From: an uncultured Methanosarcinales archaeon
GTDB lineage: Archaea > Nanobdellota > Nanobdellia > Woesearchaeales > 21-14-0-10-32-9
Direction of reading: 5' to 3'
Assembly: GCA_964501945.1 (NCBI GenBank)
Contig: CAZCTY010000001.1
Span: 49,187 to 113,186, forward strand
Length of the DNA stretch: 64,000 nucleotides
Shown here piece after piece: positions 5,078-48,443 of the stretch. Below the pieces are notes generated by a model. It was not told the DNA's origin. It worked only from the letters and a program-made list of their open reading frames with translations, and did not search any database. A program made the translations under genes and the position numbers. Each line of letters opens with the position of its first letter. Within the stretch, counting starts at the first letter, position 1.

Positions 5078-5078
5078 A

Positions 5079-12105: not shown

Positions 12106-12154
12106 TTTTTTCTTCTCTATTTTTTATTTTTTATAAAAAAAACAAAAAAAGAAT

Positions 12155-12931: not shown

Positions 12932-13163
12932 TTTGATTTTTCACCTCTCGGTTTTTTTTATTGATCACGCACAAACCACGTAAACTCATATACAAATATG
13001 TATACTGATATATAAATCTTTCGAAAGGGGTTGGTTTTTCATCCTAAAAAATCAAAATTTTCAAGAAAGAAAGCCCAAAAACAAAAAATACATCAAAAGA
13101 AGAATATTTAACCAAAACAGAAGAAATAGACGAAGAACATATAAAGATATAAAAAAGAAACTA

Positions 13164-14087: not shown

Positions 14088-14210
14088 AAAAACCCCTCTT
14101 TTTTACAATTAAAAATAATAACTAAATATATAAAGCTTTTTATTAAAAAAATAATAATAAAAATAACAAAAAGATTTAAAATAAAACAAAACTAAAACAC
14201 AAAATATACC

Positions 14211-15179
14211 ATGACATACCACAAACTACTAAAAAAAGTTCCAAAAGACAAAGAATTGAAACTAATAAGAGGAGTTACAGCACAAAACTACGAAGAATTA
14301 CTCACACAACTAATAAAAATAAAAGATGAAGATTTCAAAAAAATAATCAAAAAAGAAAACAAAATAATCAAATGGATAAAAGAAAACTACAATGACGAAA
14401 CACTAATTAACGAATTAAAAAATAAGAAAACCAAAAAAGAATACATGAAAAAAATATATGAGAGAATAGAGACAATAAAAAAAGAATCACAGGACCTCTC
14501 AACACTAATCAACCAAAGACAAAAACTAATAAAAAAGAAAACAAGCATCATGCCAATAATCTGGCTAAGTATATACATAATTTTAATCATACTACTAATA
14601 ACACAACACACATACTACACAAAACAAACAGACTACCTAAAAAACCGCGTAATAGACGAACAAGAAATAACAAAAAAATTCTACGAAGACAATATAAGAC
14701 TTAGAGAAAAAGAAACAGAACTGAGAGATGAAATACAAAAATTAAACGAAACAATAACCGAAATAGAGGAACAAAACACAGACCTAATGCAACAAATACG
14801 CGCACTAAACCTTGGAAGAACACAAGGACCAAAACCAAGGATTACAGAAGAAAACATAACAATAATAGATGAAGGCGTTATAATAAACGTTGATAATCCC
14901 TTATTTGCAATGTTTGAAGACACAAAATCAATGATACCAACAATAAACACCGATACAAAAGCAATACAAATAAAACCAAAAAATCCAGAAGACATACAAA
15001 AAGGAGATATAATAAGCTATGAGACGGAAGAGAAAATAATAATACACAGAGTTATAGAAGTAAATCAAGACGAAGAAGGATGGTACGCTACAACAAAAGG
15101 AGATAACACAAGACAACCAGACAGAGAAAAAGTAAGATTTGAACAAATAAGACGAATACTCATAGCACTAATATACTAA
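14211..15179 (+). CDS. Type I signal peptidase (S26B/Sec11-like) with an unusual N-terminal cytoplasmic extension, TM helix and coiled coil
   Basis: The C-terminal domain carries SPase boxes: the nucleophile box KSMIPTI, KGDIISY, the His box IIIHRVIEV (archaeal/ER Ser-His type) and GDN in TKGDNTRQPD. The TM helix is MPIIWLSIYIILIILLIT. The N-terminal approximately 90 aa resemble the KNDF-W module (EELLTQLIKIKDEDFKKIIKKENKIIKWIKENYNDETLINEL). Confidence 0.6.
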   Translation: MTYHKLLKKVPKDKELKLIRGVTAQNYEELLTQLIKIKDEDFKKIIKKENKIIKWIKENYNDETLINELKNKKTKKEYMKKIYERIETIKKESQDLSTLINQRQKLIKKKTSIMPIIWLSIYIILIILLITQHTYYTKQTDYLKNRVIDEQEITKKFYEDNIRLREKETELRDEIQKLNETITEIEEQNTDLMQQIRALNLGRTQGPKPRITEENITIIDEGVIINVDNPLFAMFEDTKSMIPTINTDTKAIQIKPKNPEDIQKGDIISYETEEKIIIHRVIEVNQDEEGWYATTKGDNTRQPDREKVRFEQIRRILIALIY

Positions 15180-15190
15180 AAAAAACATAA

Positions 15191-22600: not shown

Positions 22601-22641
22601 AATAACAATATAATCACTTAACCTTTTTAATTCTTATTTTT

Positions 22642-31866: not shown

Positions 31867-31867
31867 A

Positions 31868-34800: not shown

Positions 34801-37800
34801 TAATGTTCCCAGCTTCATCACTACAAGCAACACTCCAATTATATGAACCAGTAAAAAAACCACCAATCTCTACAGCTACCTCAGAGTTGTTTTCAACAAT
34901 TAAAGATTCAACTAATTCATCATCCAAGAAAACATCACAAGACATATTACTTGAGAATTCATCAATAACATTAAACCTAAAATCATAAGATGACGTTTCA
35001 ACAACTTGCGCATCTAAAGGATCTAAAAGAGATAAACTAGGAGGCGTCCTATCAACGACGAAACTCCAAGTATCGCTCACATTAACATTAGAAAACATAC
35101 CTGAATCCTGACACAAAACACTCCAATCATACAACCCTTCATCTAAATCAGGAACCAAGAAACTAGAAAGCTCACCACTTGAAACATTAGATGAATTACT
35201 CATCTCAAATTCATCGTTTAAATACAACTCACAAAAATCAAAACCATCATTATCAAACGCAAAATAAGACAAATTAATAACTAAATCATTTAAATGAGAC
35301 CCAATAAGAGGAGAATCTAAATTAATAGTAGGGCTTTCATTAATAGTAAAATCACGAGTCTCACTAACATTAACATTACCACCAATATCAACACACATAA
35401 CATTCCAATCATGAAAACCATCAGGCAAACCACTAACAGTTTCTGAAACAGTAACACCGCTCGTAGTGTTAGAGCTAAAAAGAGGCTCATCATTAAAATT
35501 AACAGTACAAGTTAGAGGGTCCCAATTATCAAAACCAGTATAAGAAAACAAAACACTAGAATCTGGGAAATAAGCATCATTAACAGGGCTGTGAAGCTCA
35601 ATAGTCGGTGGAGTAAAATCACCAAAGAAAACCCACGTATCACTAATACCAGTATTATCATTTGAATCTAAACACTCAACGCGCCAAGAATAAGCCTCTT
35701 CCAAGGCATTAAAAGAAAAAGAATTAACTTCATTAGGAACAACCCCTGTATCAGTTTCCTCAAGAGTATCATTTATGAAAAGAGAACATTGCTGCAAACC
35801 AAAACCATCAAACGGAACATACTCTAAAGCGACTGGGCTTGTATTGACGCCGGTAAAATTTTCAGGACTCACCAATTCAACAACAGGAGGAACATCAACA
35901 ATACTAAGATTAAAAGTATCACTAACATTAACATTGCCTGCCAAGTCTTCACACTCAATTCTCCAAGTATAATTACCAATATCAAAACCCTCAACTGTAA
36001 CATTAGACACAGTATCATTAAATGAAGTAACACTCTCAGTTAGAACATCATCAACAAAAATATTACAAGTCATCTCAGAAGACCTAGCATCACGAACAAT
36101 CCACTCAAAATTAACCCAAGACTGAGTCAGAGTATCCTCAGGGATTTGAGGGCTGAAAATGTTTAACTCGTATGGAGGAGTTCTATCAACATCAAAAAAA
36201 GAAACATTAGACTCACCAACAAGGCCACCTATATCAACACATGTAACACTCCAATTATAACTATTCTCACTTAAGCCAGAGACACTAAAAGAGTTCTGAG
36301 AATTAGCACTAGGAGACGTATCAGTGTCCTCAAGAGAACCATCAACGTATAACTCACAATAATCAAGAGTTGAAAAAGTTTGAGGAGTATACAAAAAATC
36401 AATAGGCTCATCATTCACCCAAGAATTATTCTCAGGGAAATCAAGACTAATAACAGGAGGCTCAGTAGTCGCAACAATAACTTCCTCAAAATCACTAACA
36501 GCAGAAGAATACTTTGACTCGACCAAACAACGAACATCAACAACACCAGGAGTTCCACCCTCAAGTGAAATAGTTACAGGCACAGTAGAATTAAAAACAT
36601 CACCTGCAAACTCAGGATTACTTTGCTCAGAGCCAAGAACAACAACACCTGATGTACCAACATCGCTCCAAGAACCACCACTGCGAACCTGCGCGTAAAC
36701 ATCAACATCCAAACAAGAACCTTGCTCACACGCCACATCACAAACCAAATCAAAAGAACCACCCTGACCAACACTCAAAGACTCATTAGGCTGATTCAAA
36801 AAAGCACTAAGACTACCAATTTGAGTAAAACCAAGAACATCAACAAAACTTTCAGGATGATCAACTAAATGATTAAAACTCCTCGCTTGATTAGGATGAT
36901 CATTTTCAATACGAATAACATAAAACAGAGAATCCGTACTCTCAAGCCTAATATCGCTAGGAATAGAACAAGAACCAATATTCGCACTATTATCACTACT
37001 AGCACTAGTACTCTCCTCAGAACAAATCAAAGTATTATCGCCACTATCAGACCGCTTATATAATTGCCAAGAAGGCGTTAAACGATTATCGCCTGCAGAA
37101 AAATAAGTACTAAAATCAACACTAGAACCGCCACTAATCTCTGCACCATTAGAACTCATAAAAGGACTTGTGGCCTCAACTATGGTTACTGTTTGACCAG
37201 ATGAAACAGAACCCGAAATACTATCTTCATCACCATCAGTTTCTTGCGCTAAACCAATCTCACACGGAAAAGTAGAACAATCACCTGTAGCAGTCTCAAA
37301 CCACAAACCCTCATAAATAACAGGAGGCACATCAACAGTTAAAGACCTAGTATCACTAACCGCATCATTACCTGCAACATCATAACACATAATATTCCAA
37401 TTAAAAACATTATTACTAAAAACACTGCTAATAATAACTTCCTCATCACGAGGAACATCATACAAAGTGTTAACCACGCTATCATTTACTAAAAGAGAAC
37501 AATTACTAATGGGGGAATCATCACTAACCTCAAAAGCAAAAGAAACAACACTAGAATCAGTTTCAACAAAATTATCAATAGGACTTACAAGAGAAATACT
37601 AGGAGGAGTTCTATCAATATGAATCGTCCTATTATTAATCCCCCACGCAACATCGGAGTTCTCATCTTCACATAAAACGTTCCAAGAATAAGAACCCTCA
37701 TCACTAAACGAAGCACTCAAAGAATTAACAGAACCCTCAACGACATTACTAGTAGAATTTTTAGAACTCCAACCACCCTCACTAGTATAAAGAGAACAAC

Positions 37801-39274
37801 TCTCAATTAAAGTAGATTCACTATTTGGAACAAACTCAAATAATTGATCTGGGTCTGCACGAGTAATAAAATTATTATTAGGACTTTCCAATACAACAGC
37901 AAAATCGCCAGGCTCAGTATAATTAATAGTAGTCTCAACCTCATTTAAAATCAAACTAAAATAAATAAACCTGTTCTGATTACCAGGAGCATTATAAGTA
38001 ACATCTCCTTCAAGATGAATATAATAAGTACAATAATCAGGCCAATTATCACAATTATCCTCATTAAATGATTGACTGCCGGTTTCATCAATATCACTAT
38101 TAGTCCAAGTAAGAGTTGAAGGCGTAGTAACACTTGATGAACCAACAAGGATTTCATTACCATTACCAAGAACATCATCATTATCAAAATAACCACTCTG
38201 AGAACTACTAGTTATACTAACAGGACCCGCACTATCAAAATCAGCATCAACAACATAAGTTATTTCCTCTAAGAAAAAAGAAACAGCGTTTTGAGGAACC
38301 TGAATAGTATGCTCACAGACAACACTATCACTAAGAGTGCCACCAGAACCTGTAGTGTCAATTACAAAACCACAATCAAGATCATCATCGACCTCAACAA
38401 ATAAAGGATCCTCAGGAGTTAGAGTGAAAGTGTAAACCTCGCCAGGAGTAATATCACGTTTTTTTTGCAAATCACCAAAACACTCCTGAGTAGAAAAATT
38501 ATACTCTTTACAAATATACAAAGTAGTACCCTCAGCAACCACGGAAACAGTAGCCTCATCAAAATCAACAGTCGTAGGATCAATTGCATAACTTTTAACA
38601 CTATCTCTGCCACGAATACTTATAGGATGCGTGATATCTTCAATACCAAGCCGAGGAGGAGCAGTATCACGCAAGCCCCTAAACAAAATATTTTCAACCG
38701 CGTTAATAGGACGATCCAAGGACAAACCACGACCCCTAAAAGTGCCAACCTCTTCGAACCTAACAGGCCTTTTAACATTCGCATGATTTTCAACAATTAA
38801 ACCACCAGGATTATTAATAAAAGAATCTTTTGAACCATCAACTTTTAACTCAGATAAAAAATCATCAACGTCCTCACCCTCAACAAACTCATCATCAAAC
38901 TCACGCGTATCAACAACAACCTCACTAATAACAATATCAGCAGTTTTATCAAACAATTTTATAACATACCTATCAGGCTCAATCAAATTAAACTTAACAG
39001 GAAACTCAGGAACACCAATATAATTATATACTTGAGAACTAGTCTCAACACTCAAAGACAAATAATCAAAATCATCACCTAAAAGCTCAGGCTCAGTATC
39101 AATAAAAATAACATCCTCCCCAGACACAACTTTTTCTCGAGCAATAAGATCTATATCAGAAAACTCAAAATCAGCAAACCCAGATATAGGGACAAAAAAT
39201 AAAAAAAGAGTAAGAACTAGGACGAAACTACAAAGTACTCCTAACCACCCTTTCTTCAACATCTTAAAAAACAC
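31868..39274 (-). CDS. Giant (2468 aa) secreted cell-surface protein with about 15 tandem W-x-V-x-C-x-D-x-x-G-N modules and a B/C-like C-terminal domain
   Basis: The signal peptide ends in FFVPISGFA. Modules include YSWNVLCEDENSD, FNWNIMCYDVAGN, YNWSVTCVDIGG, YTWRIECEDLAGN, YSWRVECLDSNDN, HDWNVMCVDIGGN, YDWSVLCQDSG, YNWSVACSDEAGN, YGWNVQCTDTNDM, YSWSVFCSDIAG, YNWTVACTDLDNN, HTWSVTCRDLAGN, YSWRVECIDTTV, EVFVIAEDLAGN and YVWNVTCFDFAGN. The C-terminus TGILWDHSE..FEIRVPATLREYQGPDLERVIFYTEIK matches the other giant protein and family B. Confidence 0.8.
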   Translation of the reverse strand: MFFKMLKKGWLGVLCSFVLVLTLFLFFVPISGFADFEFSDIDLIAREKVVSGEDVIFIDTEPELLGDDFDYLSLSVETSSQVYNYIGVPEFPVKFNLIEPDRYVIKLFDKTADIVISEVVVDTREFDDEFVEGEDVDDFLSELKVDGSKDSFINNPGGLIVENHANVKRPVRFEEVGTFRGRGLSLDRPINAVENILFRGLRDTAPPRLGIEDITHPISIRGRDSVKSYAIDPTTVDFDEATVSVVAEGTTLYICKEYNFSTQECFGDLQKKRDITPGEVYTFTLTPEDPLFVEVDDDLDCGFVIDTTGSGGTLSDSVVCEHTIQVPQNAVSFFLEEITYVVDADFDSAGPVSITSSSQSGYFDNDDVLGNGNEILVGSSSVTTPSTLTWTNSDIDETGSQSFNEDNCDNWPDYCTYYIHLEGDVTYNAPGNQNRFIYFSLILNEVETTINYTEPGDFAVVLESPNNNFITRADPDQLFEFVPNSESTLIESCSLYTSEGGWSSKNSTSNVVEGSVNSLSASFSDEGSYSWNVLCEDENSDVAWGINNRTIHIDRTPPSISLVSPIDNFVETDSSVVSFAFEVSDDSPISNCSLLVNDSVVNTLYDVPRDEEVIISSVFSNNVFNWNIMCYDVAGNDAVSDTRSLTVDVPPVIYEGLWFETATGDCSTFPCEIGLAQETDGDEDSISGSVSSGQTVTIVEATSPFMSSNGAEISGGSSVDFSTYFSAGDNRLTPSWQLYKRSDSGDNTLICSEESTSASSDNSANIGSCSIPSDIRLESTDSLFYVIRIENDHPNQARSFNHLVDHPESFVDVLGFTQIGSLSAFLNQPNESLSVGQGGSFDLVCDVACEQGSCLDVDVYAQVRSGGSWSDVGTSGVVVLGSEQSNPEFAGDVFNSTVPVTISLEGGTPGVVDVRCLVESKYSSAVSDFEEVIVATTEPPVISLDFPENNSWVNDEPIDFLYTPQTFSTLDYCELYVDGSLEDTDTSPSANSQNSFSVSGLSENSYNWSVTCVDIGGLVGESNVSFFDVDRTPPYELNIFSPQIPEDTLTQSWVNFEWIVRDARSSEMTCNIFVDDVLTESVTSFNDTVSNVTVEGFDIGNYTWRIECEDLAGNVNVSDTFNLSIVDVPPVVELVSPENFTGVNTSPVALEYVPFDGFGLQQCSLFINDTLEETDTGVVPNEVNSFSFNALEEAYSWRVECLDSNDNTGISDTWVFFGDFTPPTIELHSPVNDAYFPDSSVLFSYTGFDNWDPLTCTVNFNDEPLFSSNTTSGVTVSETVSGLPDGFHDWNVMCVDIGGNVNVSETRDFTINESPTINLDSPLIGSHLNDLVINLSYFAFDNDGFDFCELYLNDEFEMSNSSNVSSGELSSFLVPDLDEGLYDWSVLCQDSGMFSNVNVSDTWSFVVDRTPPSLSLLDPLDAQVVETSSYDFRFNVIDEFSSNMSCDVFLDDELVESLIVENNSEVAVEIGGFFTGSYNWSVACSDEAGNINVSDTINFEVLLPPKVTLVSPANNTGSDSQDTEFSFIPSEGSGEFPVCSLILNNDVVDTISDAPLGEVSTFLVENMDDGAYGWNVQCTDTNDMTGSADDSWIYYVDTEPPYEILMFNPLNETVEIFNNVTFSFLARDEVSPEMYCDVILTEYEPVVDTYSLTPDSLLVENNTVHNFSYLLPDGNYSWSVFCSDIAGLYNQSEEFFFEVDAPPNVTLVSPENYSWFNTDSVTLTYLPEDDFGISQCELIINDEVIESTSSVLNKNLNTFELDDLDEGEYNWTVACTDLDNNVFAPEPFSFYVDLLAPEVELHNPLQDELLDESPIVFNWTVTDLLSPVLYCDLNINGEVESENIQVLNGVPYQESVFGLSEDNHTWSVTCRDLAGNVDESETRDFSVFIPPEITLISPDDNLWTNVTNQEFVYRVFDDTGVEQCSLFINDELNQTDTSVLNDAQNSFFVNNMEGIYSWRVECIDTTVLNVLGVSNTRTLNVDLVPPSVSFVTENDTWFNDSPILEFILEDDLANVIDYEVYVNGSLEDSGSGNNGVVTSSELSGLTDGSYEVFVIAEDLAGNVNISETLIINIDTVPPVVNLNYPVNDSEVFSSDVNLSFTATDNIADPLVCDVTLNNDLVREDLSVSNGVEEIVELTGLIGGLYVWNVTCFDFAGNPGVSDTWEFFVPIPDLSVNNTEIYFNETNPREGELINVTATIRNIGEGLAEDFDVEFWANEVDVVGNQIGDTINVDSLGEGSAINVSTSFNVPIGSTEIFAVVNPDQRVVESDYDNNIASRNISVEFWHYALGTTDDSLRVTDASLGLLFDWNVDNSTGSNIYVTDFDSQISWTTLQALGKDVNDNVRMEDFVLLDNALGADEFGDSINNTYTRNGEILSGVTFEIFGQTIEDVPVVNSTTSDNFKTGILWDHSESSQYSGSENVVFITQVNKDQVGYQGGINDFEIRVPATLREYQGPDLERVIFYTEIK

Positions 39275-40329
39275 TATTTCTTTTTAAACAATTTTTTAAA
39301 AAAACCTTTTTTCTCCTCCACAGTTTTCTCCTTATCAACACTTTTGTCTTGCTCATCAGGCTTTGATGCGGAACTATCTTCCTTTGATGCAGAAGTATCA
39401 TCTTTTGAAGATACAACACTTTCACCACCTACATCTTCAACTTTCAAATTTAACTGCCTAATCGCCGAATCTAATTTTGACTTAATCTCTTTTTTTAACA
39501 AAGACATATTTTTCTTAACATCCTCATTAGTTGATTTAGAACGCTTATCCATCAAATCAATAATCTTAGTGGTGTGCTTTTCAAAATCATTAAACTTATT
39601 GATAAATTTCAAAAGCTCTTTTTTATCAGTCTTATCTTCCAACTTAACTTTCATTTTATCAAAGTCGCCCTGAATTTTTTCAAAAGAACGCTTCAAATCC
39701 TTAACAGAATCATTGAACTTATCAAACTCAGTAAACTTCTTTTCAACCTCTACATAAATAGTTTCAACTTTGTTACTATGCCTATCAATCTCACCCTCAA
39801 TTTTTTTAATTTGAATAAGCTCATCTTTAATTTCTTCATTGAGCTTAGTAACTTGTTCAATACCCTTATAAAAATCCATTTTCTTACGCATCTCTTTAAC
39901 TTCTTTCATCATATCAGACATTAAAGATTCAGAACTCTCAACGCCAGCTTTAACGCTCTCAATTTTAGAATCTTGCTTTCTAACTTCAAGCATTAATTTA
40001 TCAGGCTTCACGCTTTCAACTAAGTCAATCGCCTTAGTTGCAGACGCCTCAATGTTACCAACACTTTTGTTAGTATCCATAATCATGCCGCGAATCTCAC
40101 CAATCTCCTCACTAATACGAGAAAAACGCTCATTAGTCGCCTGACGCTGTTCGTTTAAACCCTCAAGCTGAGCCTTAATTTTAGTAACCTCAACGCCCAA
40201 CTTCGAATCGCCAAGATCATCTTCCTTTTTATTATTAGCAGCCTCTTTTTCTTCAAGCTCTTGCTGCTGCGCCTCAATATTTTTTTTAATTAATTCCTCA
40301 TCACTAACTTTTTTCTTAAACAAACCCAT
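39274..40329 (-). CDS. 351-aa cytoplasmic coiled-coil protein with K-rich termini
   Basis: Heptad-rich and E/K-rich throughout (MGLFKKKVSDEELIKKNIEAQQQELEEKE ... KKGFFKKLFKKK). No TM helix. Its stop overlaps the downstream start by 1 nt. Confidence 0.6.
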   Translation of the reverse strand: MGLFKKKVSDEELIKKNIEAQQQELEEKEAANNKKEDDLGDSKLGVEVTKIKAQLEGLNEQRQATNERFSRISEEIGEIRGMIMDTNKSVGNIEASATKAIDLVESVKPDKLMLEVRKQDSKIESVKAGVESSESLMSDMMKEVKEMRKKMDFYKGIEQVTKLNEEIKDELIQIKKIEGEIDRHSNKVETIYVEVEKKFTEFDKFNDSVKDLKRSFEKIQGDFDKMKVKLEDKTDKKELLKFINKFNDFEKHTTKIIDLMDKRSKSTNEDVKKNMSLLKKEIKSKLDSAIRQLNLKVEDVGGESVVSSKDDTSASKEDSSASKPDEQDKSVDKEKTVEEKKGFFKKLFKKK

Positions 40330-40340
40330 ACTTCATCCTC

Positions 40341-41333
40341 TCAATTTTTTAATTTATTTTTTTTAATGACATCTCCATTAACATTAGCCTTTTCCAAAAC
40401 TTCTTTTTTTATGTCAAGCTCAACAAATTGCTCAGCACTAGCAATTTCCTCCTCAACCTCGTCTAACAAGTTTTTAACTTTGTCTCTTGCCTCAAAAGAA
40501 TTATCAACTTCTAAGAAATGAATCTTAGGCTTAATCAATTTAAGCTTCATAAAAGGAATAAGCATATCAATACCTCTCCTCCTTTTCGCAGATATCAAAG
40601 AATAAAGAGATTCATACCTCTCATTAATATCAGAAACATTAGCCTTTAAAACTTCCTCGTTTAAATAAGTATTTTGCTTCATTTTCTTTGTTTTTTCTAA
40701 AAGTTGCTCACTACGCTCAGATAATGAAGCAGGAGCTGAGGTCTCAAAATCTTTTTCAGTAGAGGAGTCTTTATTCAAACTATCATTTGTTGAAGAAGGC
40801 TGTTCTATTTTTTCAGAAACATTATTAGAAGCATCACTGTCATTAGAATTTTCGACATCTTCCTTTTTAGTTTTATTTACATCAACTTCTGTTTTATTCT
40901 CTGAATTATTTTCATCAAGAGAAGCCACATCATTTGATATATTTTCATCAGATTCTTTTTTATTTCTTTTAAACAGATTCTTTAGATAATTTTTTTCTTT
41001 TTTTCTTTTATTTTCATGAGGCTTACTAATATCAGTTTTATTTTTTTTTCTAAAACTAATCTTTTTTTTCTTTTTCTTTCCATTCAAATGCTCATTAAGA
41101 ATACTTAATAAATCCTCAGGAGAACTTTTTTTCGAAAAAGAGTTAGCCAAATCTTCTTTTCCAAAAAAGCCTCTAACCCAATTCGCATAATCATTATTAG
41201 TGTCAGTAACATGTCTTTGAAAATTATGAAGATTAATTCCCTTAACATTTTTTTCTAATTCTTCTTTCAATTCGCTTAAATCTCTGAGAACTTCACCATT
41301 ACTAAAATAAAAATATTTATCTGGACTAACCAT
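40341..41333 (-). CDS. 330-aa cytoplasmic protein: N-terminal KNDF-W-like module, K/N-rich linker, C-terminal coiled coil
   Basis: The N-terminus SNGEVLRDLSELKEELEKNVKGINLHNFQRHVTDTNNDYANWVRGFFGKEDLANSF aligns with the recurring module. Its start overlaps the upstream ATPase gene by 8 nt. Confidence 0.6.
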   Translation of the reverse strand: MVSPDKYFYFSNGEVLRDLSELKEELEKNVKGINLHNFQRHVTDTNNDYANWVRGFFGKEDLANSFSKKSSPEDLLSILNEHLNGKKKKKKISFRKKNKTDISKPHENKRKKEKNYLKNLFKRNKKESDENISNDVASLDENNSENKTEVDVNKTKKEDVENSNDSDASNNVSEKIEQPSSTNDSLNKDSSTEKDFETSAPASLSERSEQLLEKTKKMKQNTYLNEEVLKANVSDINERYESLYSLISAKRRRGIDMLIPFMKLKLIKPKIHFLEVDNSFEARDKVKNLLDEVEEEIASAEQFVELDIKKEVLEKANVNGDVIKKNKLKN

Positions 41334-44300
41334 TTCTAAGCACCTCTTTTATAGCTGCCCTATCTTTCGCATGACGAATTTTCTCAGCTAATTCTTTTTC
41401 ATCAAACACGTGCTCTACCCAATTTGCAAAGTCGTTTTTCTCAGAAGTTACGTGCTTATAAAAAATATCGTCAGAAATTTTATCTAATAAATTATAAAGA
41501 TCTTTTATACTATGCAATTTTAATCCAGTCTCAAGCAAGAATGTTTTATCATCAGGCGCAATTTTTTCAAAAGCAGAGGAAACCTTAGAAGAAGTTTCAT
41601 CATCGAATTGCTCTTCTTCATCCTCTTCTTGATTCTTTTTTTCAACAGATTCATCAGATGAAGCAGCAGATTCTTTTTTAATAACGTCTTCGCTATCACT
41701 GCTTTCTTTTTTTACAGGATCTTCTTTTTCATTGCTTTCATTTTTTTCGTTTTCTTGTTCTTTGTTTTCTGCTTCAGCGTTTCCTTGTGTTTCTTTTTCA
41801 GCGCTTTCTTGTTTGTTTTCGTCGGTTGCTTCTTGTTTGTTTTCTTGTGTTTCTTTTTCGGTGTTTTCTGGTTCGTTTTCGTCGGTTTCTTTTTCTTGTT
41901 TGTCGTCATTATCGTCTTTTTTGTTTTTTGTTTCAGCACTTTCTTGTGTTTCTTTTTCTTTTTCAGTGTTTTCTGGTTCGTTTTCGTCGGTTTCTTCTTT
42001 TTTGTCTTCAGACTCTTTTTTTTCTAAAGGAGGCAGTTTTTCACCCTTGCCACGCTTATCAAGCAAATCAAGAATTTCTTTTCTATCCTTAGTATTAGCT
42101 AAATGCTCGCCTAATTCAATGTCGCCGACAGCGTTTTTAAACCAATCAGCGAAATCATTCTTTTTATCATTAACATGAAATTCAAAATCAGAGTCTTTCA
42201 TGGCTTCAATTTCAGAATACAAACTACTAGGAGTTACAACTAACATGTCATTGTTAAGCTTTAAGATTTTATCAGGAGGAACATCTTTTTTAAATTTCTC
42301 AGAAGGACTCTCTTCTTTAGAATCTCCACCACTTTCTTCTTTTTTATTTTCTTTATCAAACTTATCACGCTCACTTTGCGCCTTTTTCAAATCTTTTTCC
42401 AACTCTTCTTTAGAAACCATTTTAGGCTTTAGAATCTTAGGTTCTTTACCAATCTTATCCCACAATTTCTTTAACCTAGGTTCAAGACCCTCAATGTAAA
42501 TTTTAACCATGTTAAAATTACCAGCCTTGACTTTATCAAGTGCTAATTTAAGCTCTAACTTTAAATCAAAAACATCCTGACCTTCCTCTTCTAATTGTTC
42601 CATTTCATAAGTCATCTGATCAATTTTTTTGTTATACTCATTATACTGAGAAATTTCATCATCACTCAAACGAGCAACAGAGTGCAAGATAGGCCTGAAA
42701 GTAGTAAAATAAGGCCGACCTCTATTGTAAGCAGAGTTTTGAACCATACCAGTACCAATACTTGCCTTAACTAAGCTTTGAAGAACATCCGCGCCATACT
42801 TAGTTTTAATACGATCAAGATCTCCCTCGTCCCTAGTTCTCATCTGAATTTCTGTGTTAATGTTAGCTTTAATTTGACCAACGAAATCCGCGAGTACCTG
42901 AGATATAAGCATAACACCAATACCCCACTTCCTAAACTCACGACAAGCACGCTCAATTTGCAAGAAACCCTCACCACTACCACCAAACTTAGGCAACAAC
43001 CTGTGAACCTCATCGTAAACCAAACAAAGCCTTAAAGGCTCAGACTCATCAAAATTAGCATGAAACACCTCTCGCACAGTGTTTGCTACGAAGATATCAA
43101 TATCTTTAGGATCAAGCTTGTGAACCGCAAATACCTGAATCTCACCCGGCTTCATATATTTACGAATATCAATTAACTCACGAGCATTATCAATTTGACG
43201 AATGTTACCAACAAAAGGACGCGCATCTTTAGGCTTCATACCAAAACTCGGATACAAACCCATCAAACCTTTATTTGTAAGCTTACGAAGCATACCAGTC
43301 CATTGAGCAGTAGGATCAAAAACAATAACAGCAACATCCTTCATTAACATTTCTTCAATAATAACTTGAGCGGAAAAACTCTTACCACCACCAGTACTAC
43401 CAGCTACGATTGTGTGAGTTTTAAAATTTTCAAGATTCATATAAGACTTCTTTTCAGTCTCAGCAATCTTACCAACAAAAGCACTACGAGGCCCAGGCTT
43501 AGGCAACTCAGAATATTCAACTTTTAAATGATACTTCTTTTTAGCCTCCATCCTTTTCTTAAAAACTATTATTCCAATAATAATACCAAAGAGCAACAAA
43601 CTTCCAAGAATAGCATGCCAAACCCGCACACCCCAAAACAAAGTATATTGGTGAAATGGCAAACTAACAGTGAAAACATGACTCGAACTAGAACTCAAAT
43701 CTAAATAATTCGCAGTTACACGAATAACATACTCACCAGGAGGTAAATTATTAGGCAACTCAACGTTTCTAAGCAAAGAAACAGTAGTCTTCAAGAAAAC
43801 ATTCGCAGACTGAGTCCAAATAGTTTCCTCACCAGAAATATCTTGAATGCTAAAGAGAACATTAACAGGATACTCCCTATCAGATAACATATTAGTAAGA
43901 TCAGTTCTAAACGTGAACCTAGAACCAGAATAAATAGTTCTATCAGACATACTAATACCAATAAGAAGAGCCTGAATAGGAATTTTATCTTTATCAAGAA
44001 TTTCAATCTCAACAGGAATATTCGCATCAATATCCCCAGTTATATTAATAGTACCATTATAAATACCAGGAGTTTGATTACCAAAGAAAGTTAAAGTAAC
44101 GCGACCATCACCCCTTGCACCAATAGAAATACTGTCCCTATCAATATTAGTAATATTTTTAAAATCACCAACTAAGTCAAAATTAACCTGCATGGTGCCA
44201 TCTCTAAAACTTTGAATAACAACAGTTTCTTGAGCAAACTCTCCCTCACGAATACGCTTAGTTATACGATTAAAAGGAATCCAAAATTCCTGCCCCTCAA

Positions 44301-45459
44301 TTTCAGCAGGACGCTCAATTTGAAAAGGAACCTCACCAGGACCAACATCTTCCCCAAAATCAGGGCCTATATCAGGATGCATATCAACAAAATCAACAGG
44401 AGGCGCATCTATCTCAAGCATTATATTATGCTCAGTTTCTTCATTTAATGTAACGTTTATATCACTCTCATAAGTAGAGTAACCTTCCAAAATAGCAATT
44501 ATCTTTGACGGGCCCGCCCTAGTAGTCAAGTTATAAAAACCTTGACCATCAGTTACAGTAGAATAACCTGCAACAGTTATCAAAACATCTTCCAAAGGAT
44601 TACCAGATAAATCAGTCACAGAACCATAAACAATACCTTGCTCCTCAGGCTCATCATCCCCTCCGACACAGACATTGAAAGGATCAATAAAAACATGATA
44701 CGTAGTGGTTGAATTGTCTATAATAGGTAACAAGAATTGATAATTATAAAAACGATTATTAAAACCTCTCGAAAGAGCCTCATTTAACTCAGCGACATAA
44801 ACATAATTATCGTTTTCATCTTTTAAAATACCAGTATTAAACATACCCTCAGGTGTATCGGTGCCAACATTAGTTTTAACAGCAGGAATATTACTAATCG
44901 TTCGCTCCCCAAGAGTTATACTCATAGTTTCAGTAAAAGTCTTAGTAGCAGAATCATAATAAGACGCATCAATACCGATGAGCGCATCAATTTCTTCAGG
45001 TGATGCAGGAGTTAGAGAGTTAATAGACACCTCGGCTTCAGGAACATAACTTGCAAATAACAAATTAACCTTATCAGGCTCAACACAATCAAAAAACATA
45101 TTCGCCTCATTAGTGCTACCTTGCTCAATATCAAACATCCACGGCTGTTCTTGACCCACACCGAAAGCAGCACCATACAAACCAGCCCAATTAAAAGCAG
45201 GCTTTTTATACAATAACTCCATTTGATAAATAGTCCCGCCAATACCTTCATGATACGCAACATAACCAGTATAAATAGTAGTAGACGCGAGCAAAATAAT
45301 ACTCAAAACAAATAAAGAAATTAATAATATGTCGCTAAAAGATTTACGCTTATTCTTTTTAGGAACTGAACGATTATTAATAGCATCATCAATACTAATA
45401 TCTTTTTCCTCAAACAATTTATTTACAAAATTCCTCAAATTCCACTTCTTCTTACTCAT
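41326..45459 (-). CDS. 1377-aa membrane-anchored FtsK/HerA/VirB4-superfamily (DUF87-like) P-loop ATPase with large extracellular domain and two C-terminal KNDF-W modules
   Basis: An N-terminal TM (ILLISLFVLSIILLASTTIY) is followed by an ectodomain of about 560 aa containing a carboxypeptidase-regulatory-like beta domain (GIVYGSVTDLSGNPLEDVLITVAGYSTVTDGQGFYNL). A second TM (WHAILGSLLLFGIIIGIIVF) is followed by the ATPase core: Walker A THTIVAGSTGGGKSF, IVFDPTAQW and Walker B CLVYDEVHRLLP. Then come a coiled coil, a KNDF-W module (KNDFADWFKNAVGD), an acidic low-complexity stretch of about 170 aa and a second module (KNDFANWVEHVFDEKELAEKI). Confidence 0.8.
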   Translation of the reverse strand: MSKKKWNLRNFVNKLFEEKDISIDDAINNRSVPKKNKRKSFSDILLISLFVLSIILLASTTIYTGYVAYHEGIGGTIYQMELLYKKPAFNWAGLYGAAFGVGQEQPWMFDIEQGSTNEANMFFDCVEPDKVNLLFASYVPEAEVSINSLTPASPEEIDALIGIDASYYDSATKTFTETMSITLGERTISNIPAVKTNVGTDTPEGMFNTGILKDENDNYVYVAELNEALSRGFNNRFYNYQFLLPIIDNSTTTYHVFIDPFNVCVGGDDEPEEQGIVYGSVTDLSGNPLEDVLITVAGYSTVTDGQGFYNLTTRAGPSKIIAILEGYSTYESDINVTLNEETEHNIMLEIDAPPVDFVDMHPDIGPDFGEDVGPGEVPFQIERPAEIEGQEFWIPFNRITKRIREGEFAQETVVIQSFRDGTMQVNFDLVGDFKNITNIDRDSISIGARGDGRVTLTFFGNQTPGIYNGTINITGDIDANIPVEIEILDKDKIPIQALLIGISMSDRTIYSGSRFTFRTDLTNMLSDREYPVNVLFSIQDISGEETIWTQSANVFLKTTVSLLRNVELPNNLPPGEYVIRVTANYLDLSSSSSHVFTVSLPFHQYTLFWGVRVWHAILGSLLLFGIIIGIIVFKKRMEAKKKYHLKVEYSELPKPGPRSAFVGKIAETEKKSYMNLENFKTHTIVAGSTGGGKSFSAQVIIEEMLMKDVAVIVFDPTAQWTGMLRKLTNKGLMGLYPSFGMKPKDARPFVGNIRQIDNARELIDIRKYMKPGEIQVFAVHKLDPKDIDIFVANTVREVFHANFDESEPLRLCLVYDEVHRLLPKFGGSGEGFLQIERACREFRKWGIGVMLISQVLADFVGQIKANINTEIQMRTRDEGDLDRIKTKYGADVLQSLVKASIGTGMVQNSAYNRGRPYFTTFRPILHSVARLSDDEISQYNEYNKKIDQMTYEMEQLEEEGQDVFDLKLELKLALDKVKAGNFNMVKIYIEGLEPRLKKLWDKIGKEPKILKPKMVSKEELEKDLKKAQSERDKFDKENKKEESGGDSKEESPSEKFKKDVPPDKILKLNNDMLVVTPSSLYSEIEAMKDSDFEFHVNDKKNDFADWFKNAVGDIELGEHLANTKDRKEILDLLDKRGKGEKLPPLEKKESEDKKEETDENEPENTEKEKETQESAETKNKKDDNDDKQEKETDENEPENTEKETQENKQEATDENKQESAEKETQGNAEAENKEQENEKNESNEKEDPVKKESSDSEDVIKKESAASSDESVEKKNQEEDEEEQFDDETSSKVSSAFEKIAPDDKTFLLETGLKLHSIKDLYNLLDKISDDIFYKHVTSEKNDFANWVEHVFDEKELAEKIRHAKDRAAIKEVLRNG
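41740..42000. repeat. Intragenic imperfect tandem duplication (unit roughly 100 bp) in the acidic low-complexity region of the ATPase gene
   Basis: ggtgttttctggttcgttttcgtcggtttct at about 41861 recurs as agtgttttctggttcgttttcgtcggtttct at about 41961. The protein reads KETDENEPENTEKE...KETDENEPENTEKE. Confidence 0.5.
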
Positions 45460-48443
45460 TTTAATTTCTTCAACTCATCACCAAGCAATAAAACTTGATC
45501 CTTGAAACTTTTTTGAATATCAACATCAGCCTTATTGAAAACATCAGATAAAAGATTGTAAGTTTTAATAGCATCATCTACACTGCCTTCTTTTTGAGAG
45601 GCATGCACGCGATTAATTAAATATTCAATGTACTTTTCATTTAATAAATTCACAAGTAAAGAAATATCGTCATATACCTGATTTTTAATTTTTCCAGGAG
45701 CATTTTCATACAACATTTTAATTTCTTTGTATATAAGATTCGCACGCTCTAAATTCTGAATTTCCAAATAATCTTTAGCATCATTTATGAGAACCTTCAA
45801 CTCTTTCATCTTACGATCACTTCTAAAATTATTAACAAAACCAAACAACTTATCTTTAACATTAAAGGCATAAAACAAATAAGCCAAAACCAATATTATC
45901 AACAATAAAAACAAACCAGTGGTATGATCAACATCTCCAGCTCTTGAAGTTACCATGCCTGTAAAACTAGGAATATTGCTTCTAGAACTACTAGAAGAGA
46001 ATGCGTCCCCACCCAAAAGCAAAGTATGGGCTTTTTTAACATCATCTAAAGAAGAATGACCAACAGAGTAATAAGTTATAAAATCTGGCTTTTCTAAAAC
46101 CAATAATTCATTTCTTATAAGAGAGTCATGACTTTGCAACACAGTCAAATCAGAACGTAAATTCTCAGGCACACTTTCCAATAAAAATTGATCCCTTTTA
46201 GTCTCGCCAGTATACTCAACAGTTTTATGAACTAAAGTAATATCTTTAGTAGACCCATCCAAATAAGTAATAGTTAAATGAGCAGTGAAAGTACGAGTTC
46301 TAAAAAGATTTTGAAGCCTTTCAACTTCCCTCATGTTAACGCCGCCTTGAAGATTCCTATTTTCAAAATAAGCACTAGCAATCTCTTCCAATTCATCAGA
46401 GTCAGGATACGCAATGAACTCCTCAGATTTTTCAAGCTCAATTAATAAAGGCGTTTCTTTTTCTAATTCACGAATCAAATCTTTATATTCCTCAATTCTC
46501 TCCTCTTTTTGAACATCACTTAAATCTCGTCTCAAAGCCAAACTATTAATATCTCTTAAAATACGCTCATAATCCCTTAAACTAACTCTGAGCGTTTCCT
46601 CAACATTTAAAGCATCAGCAGCCCTTCTCGCCTCAAGCTCTAAATCATTAAAATTATCATTAGCGTTCTCAATTTTTCTCCTCAACTCACCAGCATCAAT
46701 TATATCAGATATATCATCCGCGGTAGTTGCTGAAAAACTTTCTTGAGACGCTGAAACACTCAAATCACGTACCTCAGAATCCTCATCACCACAACTAATC
46801 TGCCAACTATACTCCCCGTCATCAAGCTTTTCAACAAAAGATAGAGAGCCTTCCTTAACATCTTCTTTTTTAGCAAGATCTGCAAACCAAGAACTACCTT
46901 TTTCAGCAATTAAAAGACTACAAGTTTTTTCTTCTTCTAAAGATAAAATAGCTTCAAAACTCACTTCCTCGCGGGAGATAGATGCGCCAGCCTCAGGTGA
47001 CTGCAAAAATATAGGTGAGGTGCTATCGCTCGTGCTACTTGGGGAGGACTCAATTTTATCTAACCTAATTGTCACAGATAAATCTTCATCTAATTCAATG
47101 TCTTGATTTCTACTTGAATGACCCTCACCGCCAACTCTTAAACGATAATCATCTTCACGAAGCCTGAAAGTTACACGGCCATTACTATCAGTAAAATCAG
47201 ATTTTCTCAAATCAACAATTTGAACATCAGCATCTTCCATTACATTATTTTCATGATCTCTAACTTCAACAACCAAATCATAATACCTATCAACATCAAT
47301 TTCAAAATCTTTAACTTTCCTATTACCGCGAGAATCAACAACGATTAAAGAAACTTCGTGGGATCCAGCACTGGAGAAAGACAAATCAACCTCATCATCA
47401 GATTCAGTTTCGCCATCAAACTCCCAAGTATATTCATAAGGAGAAATACCTCCTGAAGCACTAGCTTTCAAAGTTATTTCTTCATCAACTTCCAAATCTT
47501 TTTTTCCACTCAAAGAAATATCAATAGTGTTCGTTACTTTGTATGAAACATTATGAGTAACACCAGATTCTTTTAAAATAAAATCAAGCCTATAATCTCC
47601 TGCGACGAATGCTTTTTCAAAATCAATTTTTTGCCACAACTTACCATCTTTATTGATGTTCAAATTATCAATTGTGAACTCTTCAGATTTTTCTAAGGTT
47701 TCAAAGTTAGGATTTTTCTCAGAACGCAACCAAACCTTTAATTCAAATTCTAAACCTTCCTCGCCATGAACTAAAAGATAACCTTCCTCGCCAAGAGAGA
47801 AATTTTTATCACTCAACTCAACATAAAAAGGCTCAACCACATCAACCTTTCTAATAACTTGCATAGGAGTATAATTTTCATTTTCATTGAACCTAGCGGT
47901 GATTTCATAAGTTTTGAAATCTTCAAATTTTTCACTTGACGATAATTTTGAAGCATTAGCTTTGCTCAAAACAACCTCGCCATCAATTAATAATTCTAAT
48001 TCGCCTTTAACATCAGAATCTATAGATATGTTTACAGTTTCATTTCTAAAAACAGTCAAATCTTCTGTTTTACCATTTAAAGATAAATTAAGTTTCGGCG
48101 TGGCTTTTTCAATTTCATAATTACCGGAAATATTAGTTGTGTTAGTTTCATTTCCTTTTTCCCACAAGTAATTATATTCTCCAGCGCTTAAATCATCTAT
48201 ATTTACCAAATAAGAATTTCTTTCTTTGTCATAATCAACTTTTTCCCTTGATAAAATTACTAATTTATCTTTAGATAGCTTAAACCAAACAGTATCGTTT
48301 AACTCTTCTAAATCAAGCATAAAATCATAAGATTTATCAGGCTCATAAACAGGAGATTCAGGATGGACATTACTAATAGCTGAAATAGTTGGAACTAATA
48401 GCAATATCATTAAAGTTGCCAGATAAAATATTTTGTTTTTCAT
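45456..48443 (-). CDS. 995-aa type I membrane protein with PKD-like and carboxypeptidase-regulatory-like extracellular domains, a TM helix and a cytoplasmic tail of about 130 aa
   Basis: The signal peptide ends in LLLVPTISAIS. A PKD-like segment is GGISPYEYTWEFDGETESDDEVDLSFSSAGSHEVSLIVVDSRGN. A CarboxypepD_reg-like segment is YDLVVEVRDHENNVMEDADVQIVDLRKSDFTDSNGRVTF. The TM is TGLFLLLIILVLAYLFYAF. Four-nucleotide overlaps occur at both ends. Confidence 0.75.
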   Translation of the reverse strand: MKNKIFYLATLMILLLVPTISAISNVHPESPVYEPDKSYDFMLDLEELNDTVWFKLSKDKLVILSREKVDYDKERNSYLVNIDDLSAGEYNYLWEKGNETNTTNISGNYEIEKATPKLNLSLNGKTEDLTVFRNETVNISIDSDVKGELELLIDGEVVLSKANASKLSSSEKFEDFKTYEITARFNENENYTPMQVIRKVDVVEPFYVELSDKNFSLGEEGYLLVHGEEGLEFELKVWLRSEKNPNFETLEKSEEFTIDNLNINKDGKLWQKIDFEKAFVAGDYRLDFILKESGVTHNVSYKVTNTIDISLSGKKDLEVDEEITLKASASGGISPYEYTWEFDGETESDDEVDLSFSSAGSHEVSLIVVDSRGNRKVKDFEIDVDRYYDLVVEVRDHENNVMEDADVQIVDLRKSDFTDSNGRVTFRLREDDYRLRVGGEGHSSRNQDIELDEDLSVTIRLDKIESSPSSTSDSTSPIFLQSPEAGASISREEVSFEAILSLEEEKTCSLLIAEKGSSWFADLAKKEDVKEGSLSFVEKLDDGEYSWQISCGDEDSEVRDLSVSASQESFSATTADDISDIIDAGELRRKIENANDNFNDLELEARRAADALNVEETLRVSLRDYERILRDINSLALRRDLSDVQKEERIEEYKDLIRELEKETPLLIELEKSEEFIAYPDSDELEEIASAYFENRNLQGGVNMREVERLQNLFRTRTFTAHLTITYLDGSTKDITLVHKTVEYTGETKRDQFLLESVPENLRSDLTVLQSHDSLIRNELLVLEKPDFITYYSVGHSSLDDVKKAHTLLLGGDAFSSSSSRSNIPSFTGMVTSRAGDVDHTTGLFLLLIILVLAYLFYAFNVKDKLFGFVNNFRSDRKMKELKVLINDAKDYLEIQNLERANLIYKEIKMLYENAPGKIKNQVYDDISLLVNLLNEKYIEYLINRVHASQKEGSVDDAIKTYNLLSDVFNKADVDIQKSFKDQVLLLGDELKKLK

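What the first reader, a model, noticed from the sequence alone, without database searches (positions are those of the whole stretch)
40341..45459. Recurrent cytoplasmic module of about 70 aa (core h-x-x-H-V-x-x-x-K-N-D-F-A/Y-x-W) present in at least six proteins of the window
One module recurs in six proteins; its consensus is F-L-x-x-G-x-x-I-x-S-I-x-E-L-x-x-x-L-x-x-M-x-D-x-x-F-x-x-H-V-x-x-E-K-N-D-F-A-x-W-V-x-x-V-F-G-x-x-x-L-A-x-x-I. It appears at the C-terminus of the 909-aa membrane protein (about 10220..10441) and of the 307-aa protein (about 13167..13390). It appears at the N-terminus of the 330-aa protein (about 41090..41333). It appears twice in the ATPase (about 42049..42273 and 41329..41541). 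A degenerate copy opens the signal peptidase (14211..14480). It is always on the cytoplasmic side, so it may be a common docking or assembly domain that ties these membrane and coiled-coil proteins into one complex.
Basis: seen in the sequence. Interest (0 to 1): 0.75.

Follow-up and report, generated by a model that had tools for sequence, protein, structure and literature searches.

The report
Recurrent OrfY/DUF5752-type cytoplasmic module
A small helical domain of unknown function, the single-repeat form of the already catalogued DUF5752/OrfY family, is attached to the cytoplasmic parts of five proteins of a conserved cell-surface gene cluster in a Woesearchaeota (DPANN) archaeon, where it probably tethers them to a membrane HerA-like ATPase.

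Summary
A module of about 78 aa occurs six times in five proteins, not six. Leave-one-out HMM scores are 42-80 bits; shuffled copies reach at most 11.7.

The family is large: 5,276 clusters at 50% identity. Stand-alone forms lay inside glycogen/alpha-glucan operons in 8 of 8 cases examined.

In Woesearchaeota the module is a fixed appendage of a highly conserved two-TM HerA/FtsK-like membrane ATPase. It is present in 117 of the 120 best homologues and in the ATPase reading frame of 77 of 80 genomic loci. It also sits on the next gene's N-terminus, on a dedicated signal peptidase, on a coiled-coil protein and on a large membrane protein's tail. All copies are predicted to be cytoplasmic.

Each position is an old paralogue. 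In some orthologues TPR repeats take the place of the second ATPase copy.

A docking or pairing role is the best-supported reading, but it is inferred and not shown. Moderate interest.

The parts
42040..42276 (-). Module copy 1 of the ATPase (aa ~1062-1140). It follows the post-ATPase helical region directly.
   Evidence: HMM E=6.5e-33. pLDDT 90-96 in the model of the cytoplasmic part. Orthologous 'A1' copies are 49% identical across loci.
41329..41562 (-). Module copy 2 of the ATPase (aa 1300-1377, the C-terminus). An acidic disordered linker of roughly 140-160 aa separates it from copy 1.
41079..41333 (-). Module at the N-terminus of the 330-aa protein (aa 1-85).
   Evidence: HMM E=2.1e-32. 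Pfam DUF5752 E=0.014, below threshold. An N-terminal module in the gene just downstream of the ATPase recurs in many of the 80 loci.
13167..13400 (-). Module at the C-terminus of the 307-aa soluble coiled-coil protein (aa 230-307).
   Evidence: HMM E=2.9e-36. Similar proteins with a C-terminal module lie near the ATPase in L042, L045, L046, L053 and L055.
10208..10441 (+). Module at the C-terminus of the 909-aa membrane protein (aa 832-909), after its last TM (aa 678-696).
   Evidence: HMM E=5.1e-35. TM map.
14235..14471 (+). Degenerate module at the N-terminus of the archaeal-type signal peptidase I (aa ~9-87), before its TM (aa 113-131).
   Evidence: Found at E=1.1e-10 by an HMM that excludes it. 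Leave-one-out score 41.8 bits against a shuffle maximum of 9.3. Peptidase identity: TIGR02228, 56.7 bits against a cutoff of 51.85. Orthologues in L072 and L080 carry a well-conserved module.
41326..45459 (-). 1377-aa membrane ATPase. Order of parts: N-in TM, an extracellular region of about 550 aa (CarboxypepD_reg), TM, HerA/FtsK-like P-loop ATPase, helical region, module, linker, module.
   Evidence: Pfam DUF87, CarboxypepD_reg and DUF5752. Foldseek to HerA 4d2i, E=1.6e-10. The ATPase domain is 64-91% identical in 80 Woesearchaeota/Nanoarchaeota loci.
40341..41333 (-). 330-aa protein: module, then a low-complexity stretch, then a conserved C-terminal helical region. It overlaps the ATPase stop by 8 nt.
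   Evidence: tblastn hits in 47 of 80 loci.
39274..40329 (-). 351-aa coiled-coil protein with no module. It is the most conserved neighbour of the ATPase.
   Evidence: 58-75% identity over aa 1-295 among the six best-matching loci listed, with hits in 60 of 80 loci. Only coiled-coil-type family hits.
13164..14087 (-). 307-aa soluble protein that carries a C-terminal module.
7715..10444 (+). 909-aa type-I-like membrane protein that carries a C-terminal module.
14211..15179 (+). 322-aa signal peptidase I (archaeal / SipW-like) with an N-terminal module.

Best explanation
The module is a single repeat of the DUF5752/OrfY fold: a beta-hairpin plus five helices, with the near-invariant core H-V-N-x-x-K-N-D-F-A-x-W.

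The canonical DUF5752 domain, including T. tenax OrfY, holds two such repeats in one chain. Immediately tandem pairs are also very common in the wider family.

In Woesearchaeota, single repeats have been grafted onto the cytoplasmic ends of the components of one conserved cell-envelope system. These components are the two-TM HerA/FtsK-like ATPase (1-3 copies after the motor), the protein encoded immediately downstream, a dedicated signal peptidase, a coiled-coil protein and a large membrane protein.

The most likely mechanism is that the repeats act as cytoplasmic docking units. They would either pair with one another, rebuilding the two-repeat unit between chains, or bind one shared partner. 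Either way the peptidase, the coiled-coil proteins and the membrane protein would be held at the hexameric ATPase hub. That hub sits under the giant Ig-domain surface proteins and small secreted proteins encoded in the same 43-kb cluster.

Shown: the recurrence, the homology and fold, the cytoplasmic side (by topology prediction), the conservation of the fusions, and position-specific purifying selection.

Inferred: that the module binds protein, and that it pairs with itself.
For: **Recurrence and significance:**

**Family and fold**
- Pfam DUF5752 at 35.7 bits against a cutoff of 23 in the ATPase.
- PDB profile hit to both repeats of 4cso_A.
- AF2 pLDDT 95.9.

**Two-repeat unit**
- Tandem modules of P0067 (aa 272-417) align collinearly with positions 16-189 of the 208-position DUF5752 profile.
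- 52 immediately adjacent module pairs occur among about 213 family proteins.

**Conserved linkage to the ATPase**
- The module lies in the ATPase reading frame in 77 of 80 loci. In L064 the ATPase frame has no hit. In L054 and L079 the ATPase C-terminal region is cut, by a frame break and by the contig end respectively.
- 117 of the 120 best ATPase homologues carry it.
- The gene downstream of the ATPase often starts with a module.
- Module-signal-peptidase fusions recur in L072 and L080.

**Not interchangeable**
- A1 copies are 49% identical across loci, but only 29.5% identical to A2 in the same locus. Nearest neighbours mostly share the same position class.

**Domain substitution**
- In TPR-bearing orthologues the TPR repeats, a bona fide protein-binding domain, occupy the C-terminal slot of module 2, and module 1 is kept.

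**Promiscuous fusions**
- The module is also fused to KaiC-like ATPases, to a shorter HerA-like ATPase subfamily, to Ig-domain membrane proteins and to coiled-coil proteins.

**Topology:**
Against: - No interaction was computed or measured.
- The number of modules per ATPase neighbourhood varies from 1 to 5 with no fixed total. No stoichiometric pairing rule emerges.
- First and second repeats of tandem proteins are only weakly distinguishable, with 73% held-out accuracy. No complementary 'types' could be assigned to the window's copies.
- Stand-alone relatives sit in glycogen operons in 8 of 8 cases. This points to a carbohydrate-linked role that the docking model does not predict.
- The near-invariant polar H/K/N/D motif could be a ligand site rather than a protein interface.
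Confidence: 0.45

Rival explanations
1. Ligand-sensing regulatory domain. The module would bind a metabolite or polymer of alpha-glucan/trehalose metabolism, such as a sugar phosphate, a nucleotide sugar or a maltooligosaccharide. On the Woesearchaeal proteins it would couple activity of the surface machine to carbon or energy status.
For: - 8 of 8 stand-alone homologues examined lie inside GT5 glycogen-synthase / GH57 / GH15 / Glycogen_syn / GDE_C / GlgC-like clusters, often with overlapping or near-abutting reading frames.
- OrfY belongs to the treT locus of T. tenax. This rests on my recollection of Kouril et al. 2008, which is only cited in PMC3634074.
- The best-conserved residues are polar or aromatic: H, K, N, D, F and an invariant W. 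That is typical of a binding site.
- The module is fused to two kinds of ATPase, HerA-like and KaiC-like.
Against: - The module also sits on non-enzymatic coiled-coil proteins and on the tail of a surface protein, where allosteric sensing has no obvious output.
- The signal-peptidase copy in this window has lost the H-V...N-D-F motif and is still retained.
- One cluster holds six copies as position-specific paralogues. That fits scaffolding better than sensing.
- No glucan genes adjoin the cluster in the window.
- K-N-D-F sits at the N-cap of helix 4 in the model, so part of the conservation may be structural.
Confidence: 0.25
2. Nucleic-acid-binding domain. The PDB depositors call OrfY a 'transcription factor'. 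On this reading the module would hold DNA for a HerA/FtsK-type DNA translocase, making the cluster a DNA uptake or transfer apparatus.
For: - Depositor's name for 4CSO.
- Many stand-alone homologues carry Lys-rich N-terminal tails, for example P0008, P0021 and P0061. The mean net charge of whole stand-alone proteins is +5.5.
- The motor is HerA/FtsK-like. Its best NCBIfam hits are CedD and TraD, though well below their cutoffs.
Against: - The module cores on the ATPases are acidic, with mean net charge -4 to -5 and a range down to -13. Stand-alone cores average 0.
- No HTH or wHTH family hit.
- The module also sits on a signal peptidase and on a surface-protein tail.
Confidence: 0.08
3. Chance similarity, or a compositional artefact of K/E-rich helical sequence.
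For: The host proteins are rich in K/E coiled-coil and low-complexity sequence.
Against: - Leave-one-out scores are 42-80 bits against a shuffle maximum of 11.7 or less.
- External homologues reach E=1e-20 and 5,276 clusters.
- The fold prediction is confident and matches a crystal structure.
Confidence: 0.01

Closest known systems
OrfY of Thermoproteus tenax (PDB 4CSO) / Pfam DUF5752 (PF19027)
   Same: - Same N-D-F-x-x-W core.
- Pfam match above threshold in the ATPase.
- Function uncharacterised in both.
   Different: - OrfY/DUF5752 is a stand-alone protein of about 210 aa with two repeats, linked to trehalose/glucan genes.
- Here single repeats are appended to membrane and coiled-coil proteins of a surface-apparatus cluster.
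- Four of the five host proteins fall below the Pfam threshold or give no hit.
Stand-alone single-module proteins of DPANN archaea and CPR bacteria (80-145 aa; P0001-P0064)
   Same: 30-57% identical to the window's copies over the whole module.
   Different: - They are free small proteins encoded in GT5-GH57-(module)-GH15/Glycogen_syn operons.
- They are not fused to envelope machinery.
C-terminal TPR repeats in a subset of orthologous Woesearchaeal ATPases
   Same: They occupy the same C-terminal slot as module 2, on the same ATPase. By analogy this is a protein-docking appendage.
   Different: Unrelated fold and sequence.
Accessory cytoplasmic adaptor domains on membrane FtsK/HerA-type secretion ATPases, e.g. 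the FHA domains of EssC/EccC in type VII secretion (from general knowledge; analogy only)
   Same: A small cytoplasmic domain appended to a membrane-anchored FtsK/HerA-superfamily motor, and to other components of the same system.
   Different: Different fold, no phosphothreonine logic, different domain of life. No homology was tested or claimed.
ViaA N-terminal domain (PDB 7UGC)
   Different: Weak helical-bundle similarity at 13% identity. A lead only.

Membership tests
Pfam DUF5752 (PF19027) / OrfY | Sequence match to the Pfam profile above its gathering score (23 bits). | tested here: inconclusive
   - ATPase: 35.7 bits, met.
- 330-aa protein: 15.2 bits, below the cutoff.
- 307-aa protein: 16.0 bits, below the cutoff.
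- 909-aa protein and signal peptidase: no hit.
- All six copies are joined to the family by a custom HMM, with external hits down to E=8e-20.
Pfam DUF5752 (PF19027) / OrfY | Fold of the solved OrfY repeat (4CSO). | tested here: met
   [not shown]
Pfam DUF5752 (PF19027) / OrfY | Two tandem repeats forming one domain of about 210 aa. | tested here: not met
   - All window copies are single.
- The two ATPase copies are about 160 aa apart, with roughly 140 of those residues disordered (segments 510-651 of the model at pLDDT <50).
- The profile is a two-repeat model.
Pfam DUF5752 (PF19027) / OrfY | Neighbourhood of alpha-glucan/trehalose metabolism genes. | tested here: not met
   No glycosyl-transferase or hydrolase genes flank any of the five host genes in the window. 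The feature holds for 8 of 8 stand-alone homologues.
HerA/FtsK-superfamily P-loop ATPase (host protein of two copies) | Walker A P-loop and HerA-like motor fold. | tested here: met
   - GSTGGGKS in the ATPase translation.
- Pfam DUF87 at 41.9 bits against a cutoff of 23.2.
- Foldseek to HerA 4d2i, E=1.6e-10, then FtsK and TcpA.
- PDB sequence hits to HerA.
Winged-helix / HTH transcription factor (the PDB name for OrfY) | HTH family match or a basic DNA-binding surface. | tested here: not met
   [not shown]
Archaeal signal peptidase I (host of the degenerate copy) | Match to TIGR02228 above its cutoff. | tested here: met
   56.7 bits against 51.85, aa 238-313.

The most novel reading that the evidence does not exclude
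The single-repeat OrfY/DUF5752 module would be a lineage-wide cytoplasmic 'address tag' of DPANN archaea. It would assemble a previously undescribed envelope machine around a membrane HerA-like motor. The machine would comprise giant Ig-domain adhesins, small secreted subunits, a dedicated signal peptidase and coiled-coil proteins, and could be the host-attachment apparatus of Woesearchaeota. The same tag, as a free protein in glycogen operons, would link that machine to carbon-storage status.
Probability: 0.15. Interest if true: 0.75.

Novelty: new variant of a known kind. Interest (0 to 1): 0.45.

Why it matters
DUF5752/OrfY has had a crystal structure since 2014 but has no known function. 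None of the 8 million papers searched mentions it.

This work gives two concrete handles on it:
- A near-obligatory genomic link of the free protein to glycogen genes.
- A fixed fusion to one of the most conserved membrane ATPases of Woesearchaeota, and to its neighbours.

If the module is a docking unit, it identifies which proteins of an uncultured, host-dependent archaeal lineage form one envelope complex. It also offers a simple test set for AF-Multimer or pull-downs. If it is a sensor instead, it would connect carbon storage with surface-structure assembly.

Either way the finding is an annotation-level advance on a known family, not a new class of element.

Tried and rejected
1. **Chance or low complexity.** Rejected by shuffles.
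2. **More copies in the window.** None below E=0.25 in six frames.
3. **A constant total of three modules per ATPase neighbourhood (fusion/fission compensation).** Not borne out. Totals range from 1 to 5.
4. **Typing the copies as 'first-repeat-like' or 'second-repeat-like' to predict heterotypic pairs.** Discrimination is weak at 73% held-out accuracy, and the window copies score equally on both profiles.
6. **AlphaFold-database fold search.** The library was unavailable.
7. **Literature.** No hits for DUF5752, PF19027, OrfY + T. tenax, or DPANN + DUF87. The search for 4CSO returned only an unrelated 1923 paper. The broader search on Woesearchaeota, HerA and signal peptidase returned nothing on this module or cluster. 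The alpha-glucan review does not mention OrfY.
8. **Defence-system reading.** PADLOC gives only generic HerA hits.
9. **Viral relatives.** None.
10. **Identity of the small secreted proteins and the 351-aa protein by PDB sequence search.** Nothing found.
Full report
**1. Observation.**

- A 1377-aa protein at 41326..45459 (-).
- A 330-aa protein at 40341..41333 (-), overlapping the former by 8 nt.
- A 909-aa protein at 7715..10444 (+).
- A 307-aa protein at 13164..14087 (-).
- A 322-aa protein at 14211..15179 (+).

No other six-frame segment of the window scores below E=0.25. The degenerate copy at the N-terminus of the 322-aa protein is found at E=1.1e-10 by a model that does not contain it.

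In a leave-one-out test each copy scores 41.8-79.5 bits. About 1000 shuffles of the same residues never exceed 11.7 bits. The recurrence is therefore real and far above what K/E-rich composition gives.

Two corrections apply. There are six copies in five proteins, not six proteins. The span given for the finding covers only three copies.

**2. What the module is.**

Pfam assigns the ATPase copies to DUF5752 (PF19027; 35.7 bits against a cutoff of 23). It gives sub-threshold DUF5752 hits for the 330-aa and 307-aa proteins.

A profile of the six copies hits one solved structure, 4CSO. This is 'OrfY protein, transcription factor' of Thermoproteus tenax, and the hit falls on two separate stretches of its 216 residues.

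With a 70-sequence alignment, AlphaFold2 models the C-terminal ATPase copy at pLDDT 95.9. The fold is a short beta-hairpin followed by five helices. K-N-D-F sits at the start of helix 4.

The Pfam profile is itself a two-repeat model. Tandem modules of P0067 align collinearly with profile positions 16-189. The window's module is thus the single-repeat form of a catalogued, structurally solved family whose function is unknown.

Full-text searches for DUF5752, PF19027 and OrfY found no paper, and the search for 4CSO returned only an unrelated 1923 paper.

**3. Size and architectures of the family.**

An exhaustive profile search finds 5,276 clusters at 50% identity with E<=0.001.

Among 213 retrieved members:
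- 126 are free proteins of 160 aa or fewer.
- 17 are bare tandem pairs.
- The rest are fusions. Some are soluble coiled-coil proteins with one or two modules at either end. Some are membrane proteins with Ig-like ectodomains. Some are KaiC-like ATPases preceded by two or three modules. Some are HerA-like membrane ATPases.

Named sources are DPANN archaea (Woese-, Pace-, Nanoarchaeota) and some Patescibacteria. No relative was found in viral contigs.

**4. Context in this window and its conservation.**

The window has 34.5% GC and carries an archaeal Hef helicase-nuclease. The ATPase's closest relatives are Woesearchaeota MAGs.

The region from about 5 to 48 kb encodes:
- Three giant Ig/CARDB surface proteins of 2469, 1903 and 2468 aa.
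- Further membrane proteins.
- Three secreted proteins of 250-300 aa.
- An archaeal-type signal peptidase I (TIGR02228, above its cutoff).
- Coiled-coil proteins.
- The ATPase.

The ATPase is N-in, then a TM, then an ectodomain of about 550 aa, then a TM. After that come a HerA/FtsK-like motor, a helical region, module 1, an acidic disordered linker (model segments 510-651 at pLDDT <50) and module 2.

Its motor is 64-91% identical in 80 genomic loci. The module lies in the ATPase reading frame in 77 of those loci, in 1-3 copies. In L064 the ATPase frame has no hit. In L054 and L079 the ATPase C-terminal region is cut, by a frame break and by the contig end respectively. 117 of the 120 best protein homologues carry the module.

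The block 995-aa protein / ATPase / 330-aa protein / 351-aa protein / giant protein is syntenic in 44-66 of the 80 loci. The gene after the ATPase usually begins with a module.

Signal peptidases with an N-terminal module recur in L072 and L080. Those of L025 and L030 lack it.

A shorter HerA-like subfamily also ends in a module. In L075 and L082 it lies close to three consecutive module-bearing genes of roughly 105-200 aa.

**5. Side of the membrane.**

Hydropathy and the positive-inside rule place every copy in the cytoplasm:
- The ATPase copies lie after TM2, which is followed by 7 K/R.
- The 909-aa copy lies after the last TM of a protein with an N-terminal signal/anchor.
- The peptidase copy lies before the single TM of an enzyme whose catalytic domain must face outward.
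- Two hosts have no TM at all.

This is prediction, not experiment.

**6. Evolutionary behaviour.**

The copies are old, position-specific paralogues. First ATPase copies are 49% identical between loci. They are only 29.5% identical to the second copy in the same locus. Nearest neighbours from other genomes mostly share the same position class. So each position is kept by selection, and the copies are not interchangeable.

In one group of orthologues TPR repeats occupy the C-terminal slot of module 2, and module 1 is retained.

The number of modules per neighbourhood varies from 1 to 5 without a fixed sum. First and second repeats of tandem proteins are barely distinguishable. No pairing code could be read from sequence.

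**7. An unexpected second context.**

All eight stand-alone homologues whose contigs were examined lie inside alpha-glucan gene clusters. The typical order is GT5 glycogen synthase, GH57, the module protein, then GH15, Glycogen_syn or GDE_C. In one case the neighbour is a GlgC-like nucleotidyltransferase. Reading frames often overlap or nearly abut. The pattern holds in both bacterial and archaeal contigs.

This agrees with OrfY lying next to treT in T. tenax. That point rests on my memory of Kouril et al. 2008, which I could only see cited.

No such genes flank the module-bearing genes of the window.

**8. Mechanism.**

The best-supported reading is a cytoplasmic docking unit. Five lines of evidence fit it better than the alternatives:
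- The canonical family unit is a pair of repeats.
- Single repeats are scattered over the components of one conserved system.
- The copies are position-specific.
- One slot can be taken by TPR repeats.
- The domain is promiscuously fused to two kinds of oligomeric ATPase and to coiled-coil proteins.

On this reading the modules recruit the peptidase, the coiled-coil proteins and a membrane protein to the HerA-like hub. They would do so by repeat-repeat pairing or through a common partner. None of this was tested. I put it at about 0.45.

The main rival, at about 0.25, is a ligand-sensing domain tied to glucan metabolism. The operon data and the polar/aromatic invariant motif favour it.

DNA binding, suggested by the PDB name and by the translocase-like motor, is disfavoured. 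The ATPase-borne modules are acidic, and there is no DNA-binding fold match.

**9. Comparison and novelty.**

The module works like other small adaptor domains on secretion or translocation ATPases. It is a member of the DUF5752/OrfY superfamily by fold and, for the ATPase, by the Pfam threshold. It differs from the family definition in being a single repeat, fused, and outside glucan loci.

The DUF87 + DUF5752 co-occurrence is already visible in precomputed annotations. The domain itself is therefore not a discovery.

What is new:
- Its systematic deployment across a conserved Woesearchaeal envelope cluster.
- The glycogen-operon link of the free form.

I rate it a new variant of a known kind, with interest 0.45.

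Noticed in passing
L083 6001-6291; L085 6001-6330; L087 6001-6312; L088 6001-6279; L089 6001-6336; L090 1219-1638; L091 5001-5402; L092 5001-5339: All eight stand-alone single-module homologues examined lie inside alpha-glucan/glycogen gene clusters. The typical order is GT5 synthase, GH57, the module protein, then GH15, Glycogen_syn or GDE_C. One lies next to a GlgC-like gene. Both CPR-bacterial and DPANN-archaeal contigs show this. I found no literature on the link.
   Followed up: partly
window 5058..48443: A cluster of about 43 kb encodes three giant Ig/CARDB surface proteins (2469, 1903 and 2468 aa), several type-I membrane proteins, three small secreted proteins, a signal peptidase, coiled-coil proteins and the HerA-like membrane ATPase. 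The core block, 995-aa / ATPase / 330-aa / 351-aa / giant protein, is syntenic in 44-66 of 80 Woesearchaeota loci. It looks like an undescribed envelope or attachment apparatus.
   Followed up: partly
window 39274..40329 (-): The 351-aa coiled-coil protein has no module. It is 58-75% identical over aa 1-295 among the six best-matching loci listed and has hits in 60 of 80 loci, far more conserved than its neighbours. It has no family or PDB match beyond generic coiled-coil hits.
   Followed up: partly
window 10441..12931 (-) and 22642..24387 (-): Three adjacent genes encode secreted proteins of 299, 248 and 258 aa and sit next to the module-bearing 307-aa protein and the signal peptidase. The same block lies near the ATPase in L042, L045, L046, L053 and L055. 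The C-terminal half of the 581-aa protein (aa ~346-579) hits the same locus coordinates as the 299-aa protein, so it is a paralogue. The arrangement resembles SipW-type peptidase plus fibre-subunit loci, but no family or PDB hit was obtained.
   Followed up: partly
P0267-P0287 (orthologous ATPases), e.g. P0268 aa 1207-1236, P0282 aa 1221-1280: A subgroup of the orthologous ATPases carries TPR repeats at the extreme C-terminus, where module 2 sits in the window's protein. Module 1 is retained.
   Followed up: yes
P0073, P0080, P0120, P0136 (family representatives): Two or three modules precede a KaiC-like ATPase domain (PF06745) in soluble proteins of 640-800 aa. The Pfam scan covered P0073, P0080 and P0120. 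For P0136 only the three modules and a Walker A motif were seen. This is a second, unrelated ATPase class fused to the same module.
   Followed up: partly
L075 3028-4475 (-) and L082 11607-13009 (+): Three consecutive module-bearing reading frames of 107-198 aa (E about 1e-29 to 1e-31) lie a few kb from a shorter (~780 aa) HerA-like ATPase. That ATPase lacks the large ectodomain but also ends in a module.
   Followed up: no
window 41722..41995 (-), ATPase aa ~1155-1245: The linker between the two ATPase modules is an acidic low-complexity stretch built from imperfect DNA tandem repeats with periods of 15-60 nt. An example at peptide level is ETDENEPENTEKE, which occurs twice. The stretch is predicted disordered (pLDDT ~35) and varies in length between orthologues.
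   Followed up: partly
window 45456..45459, 41326..41333, 39274: Successive genes on the minus strand overlap by 4, 8 and 1 nt (995-aa/ATPase, ATPase/330-aa, 351-aa/2468-aa). This suggests one translationally coupled operon.
   Followed up: no
window 14211..15179 (+), aa 9-87: The signal-peptidase copy in this genome has lost the H-V and N-D-F core residues and keeps the Trp. The orthologous peptidases in L072 and L080 keep a strong module (E about 1e-23). Those in L025 and L030 have no module.
   Followed up: yes
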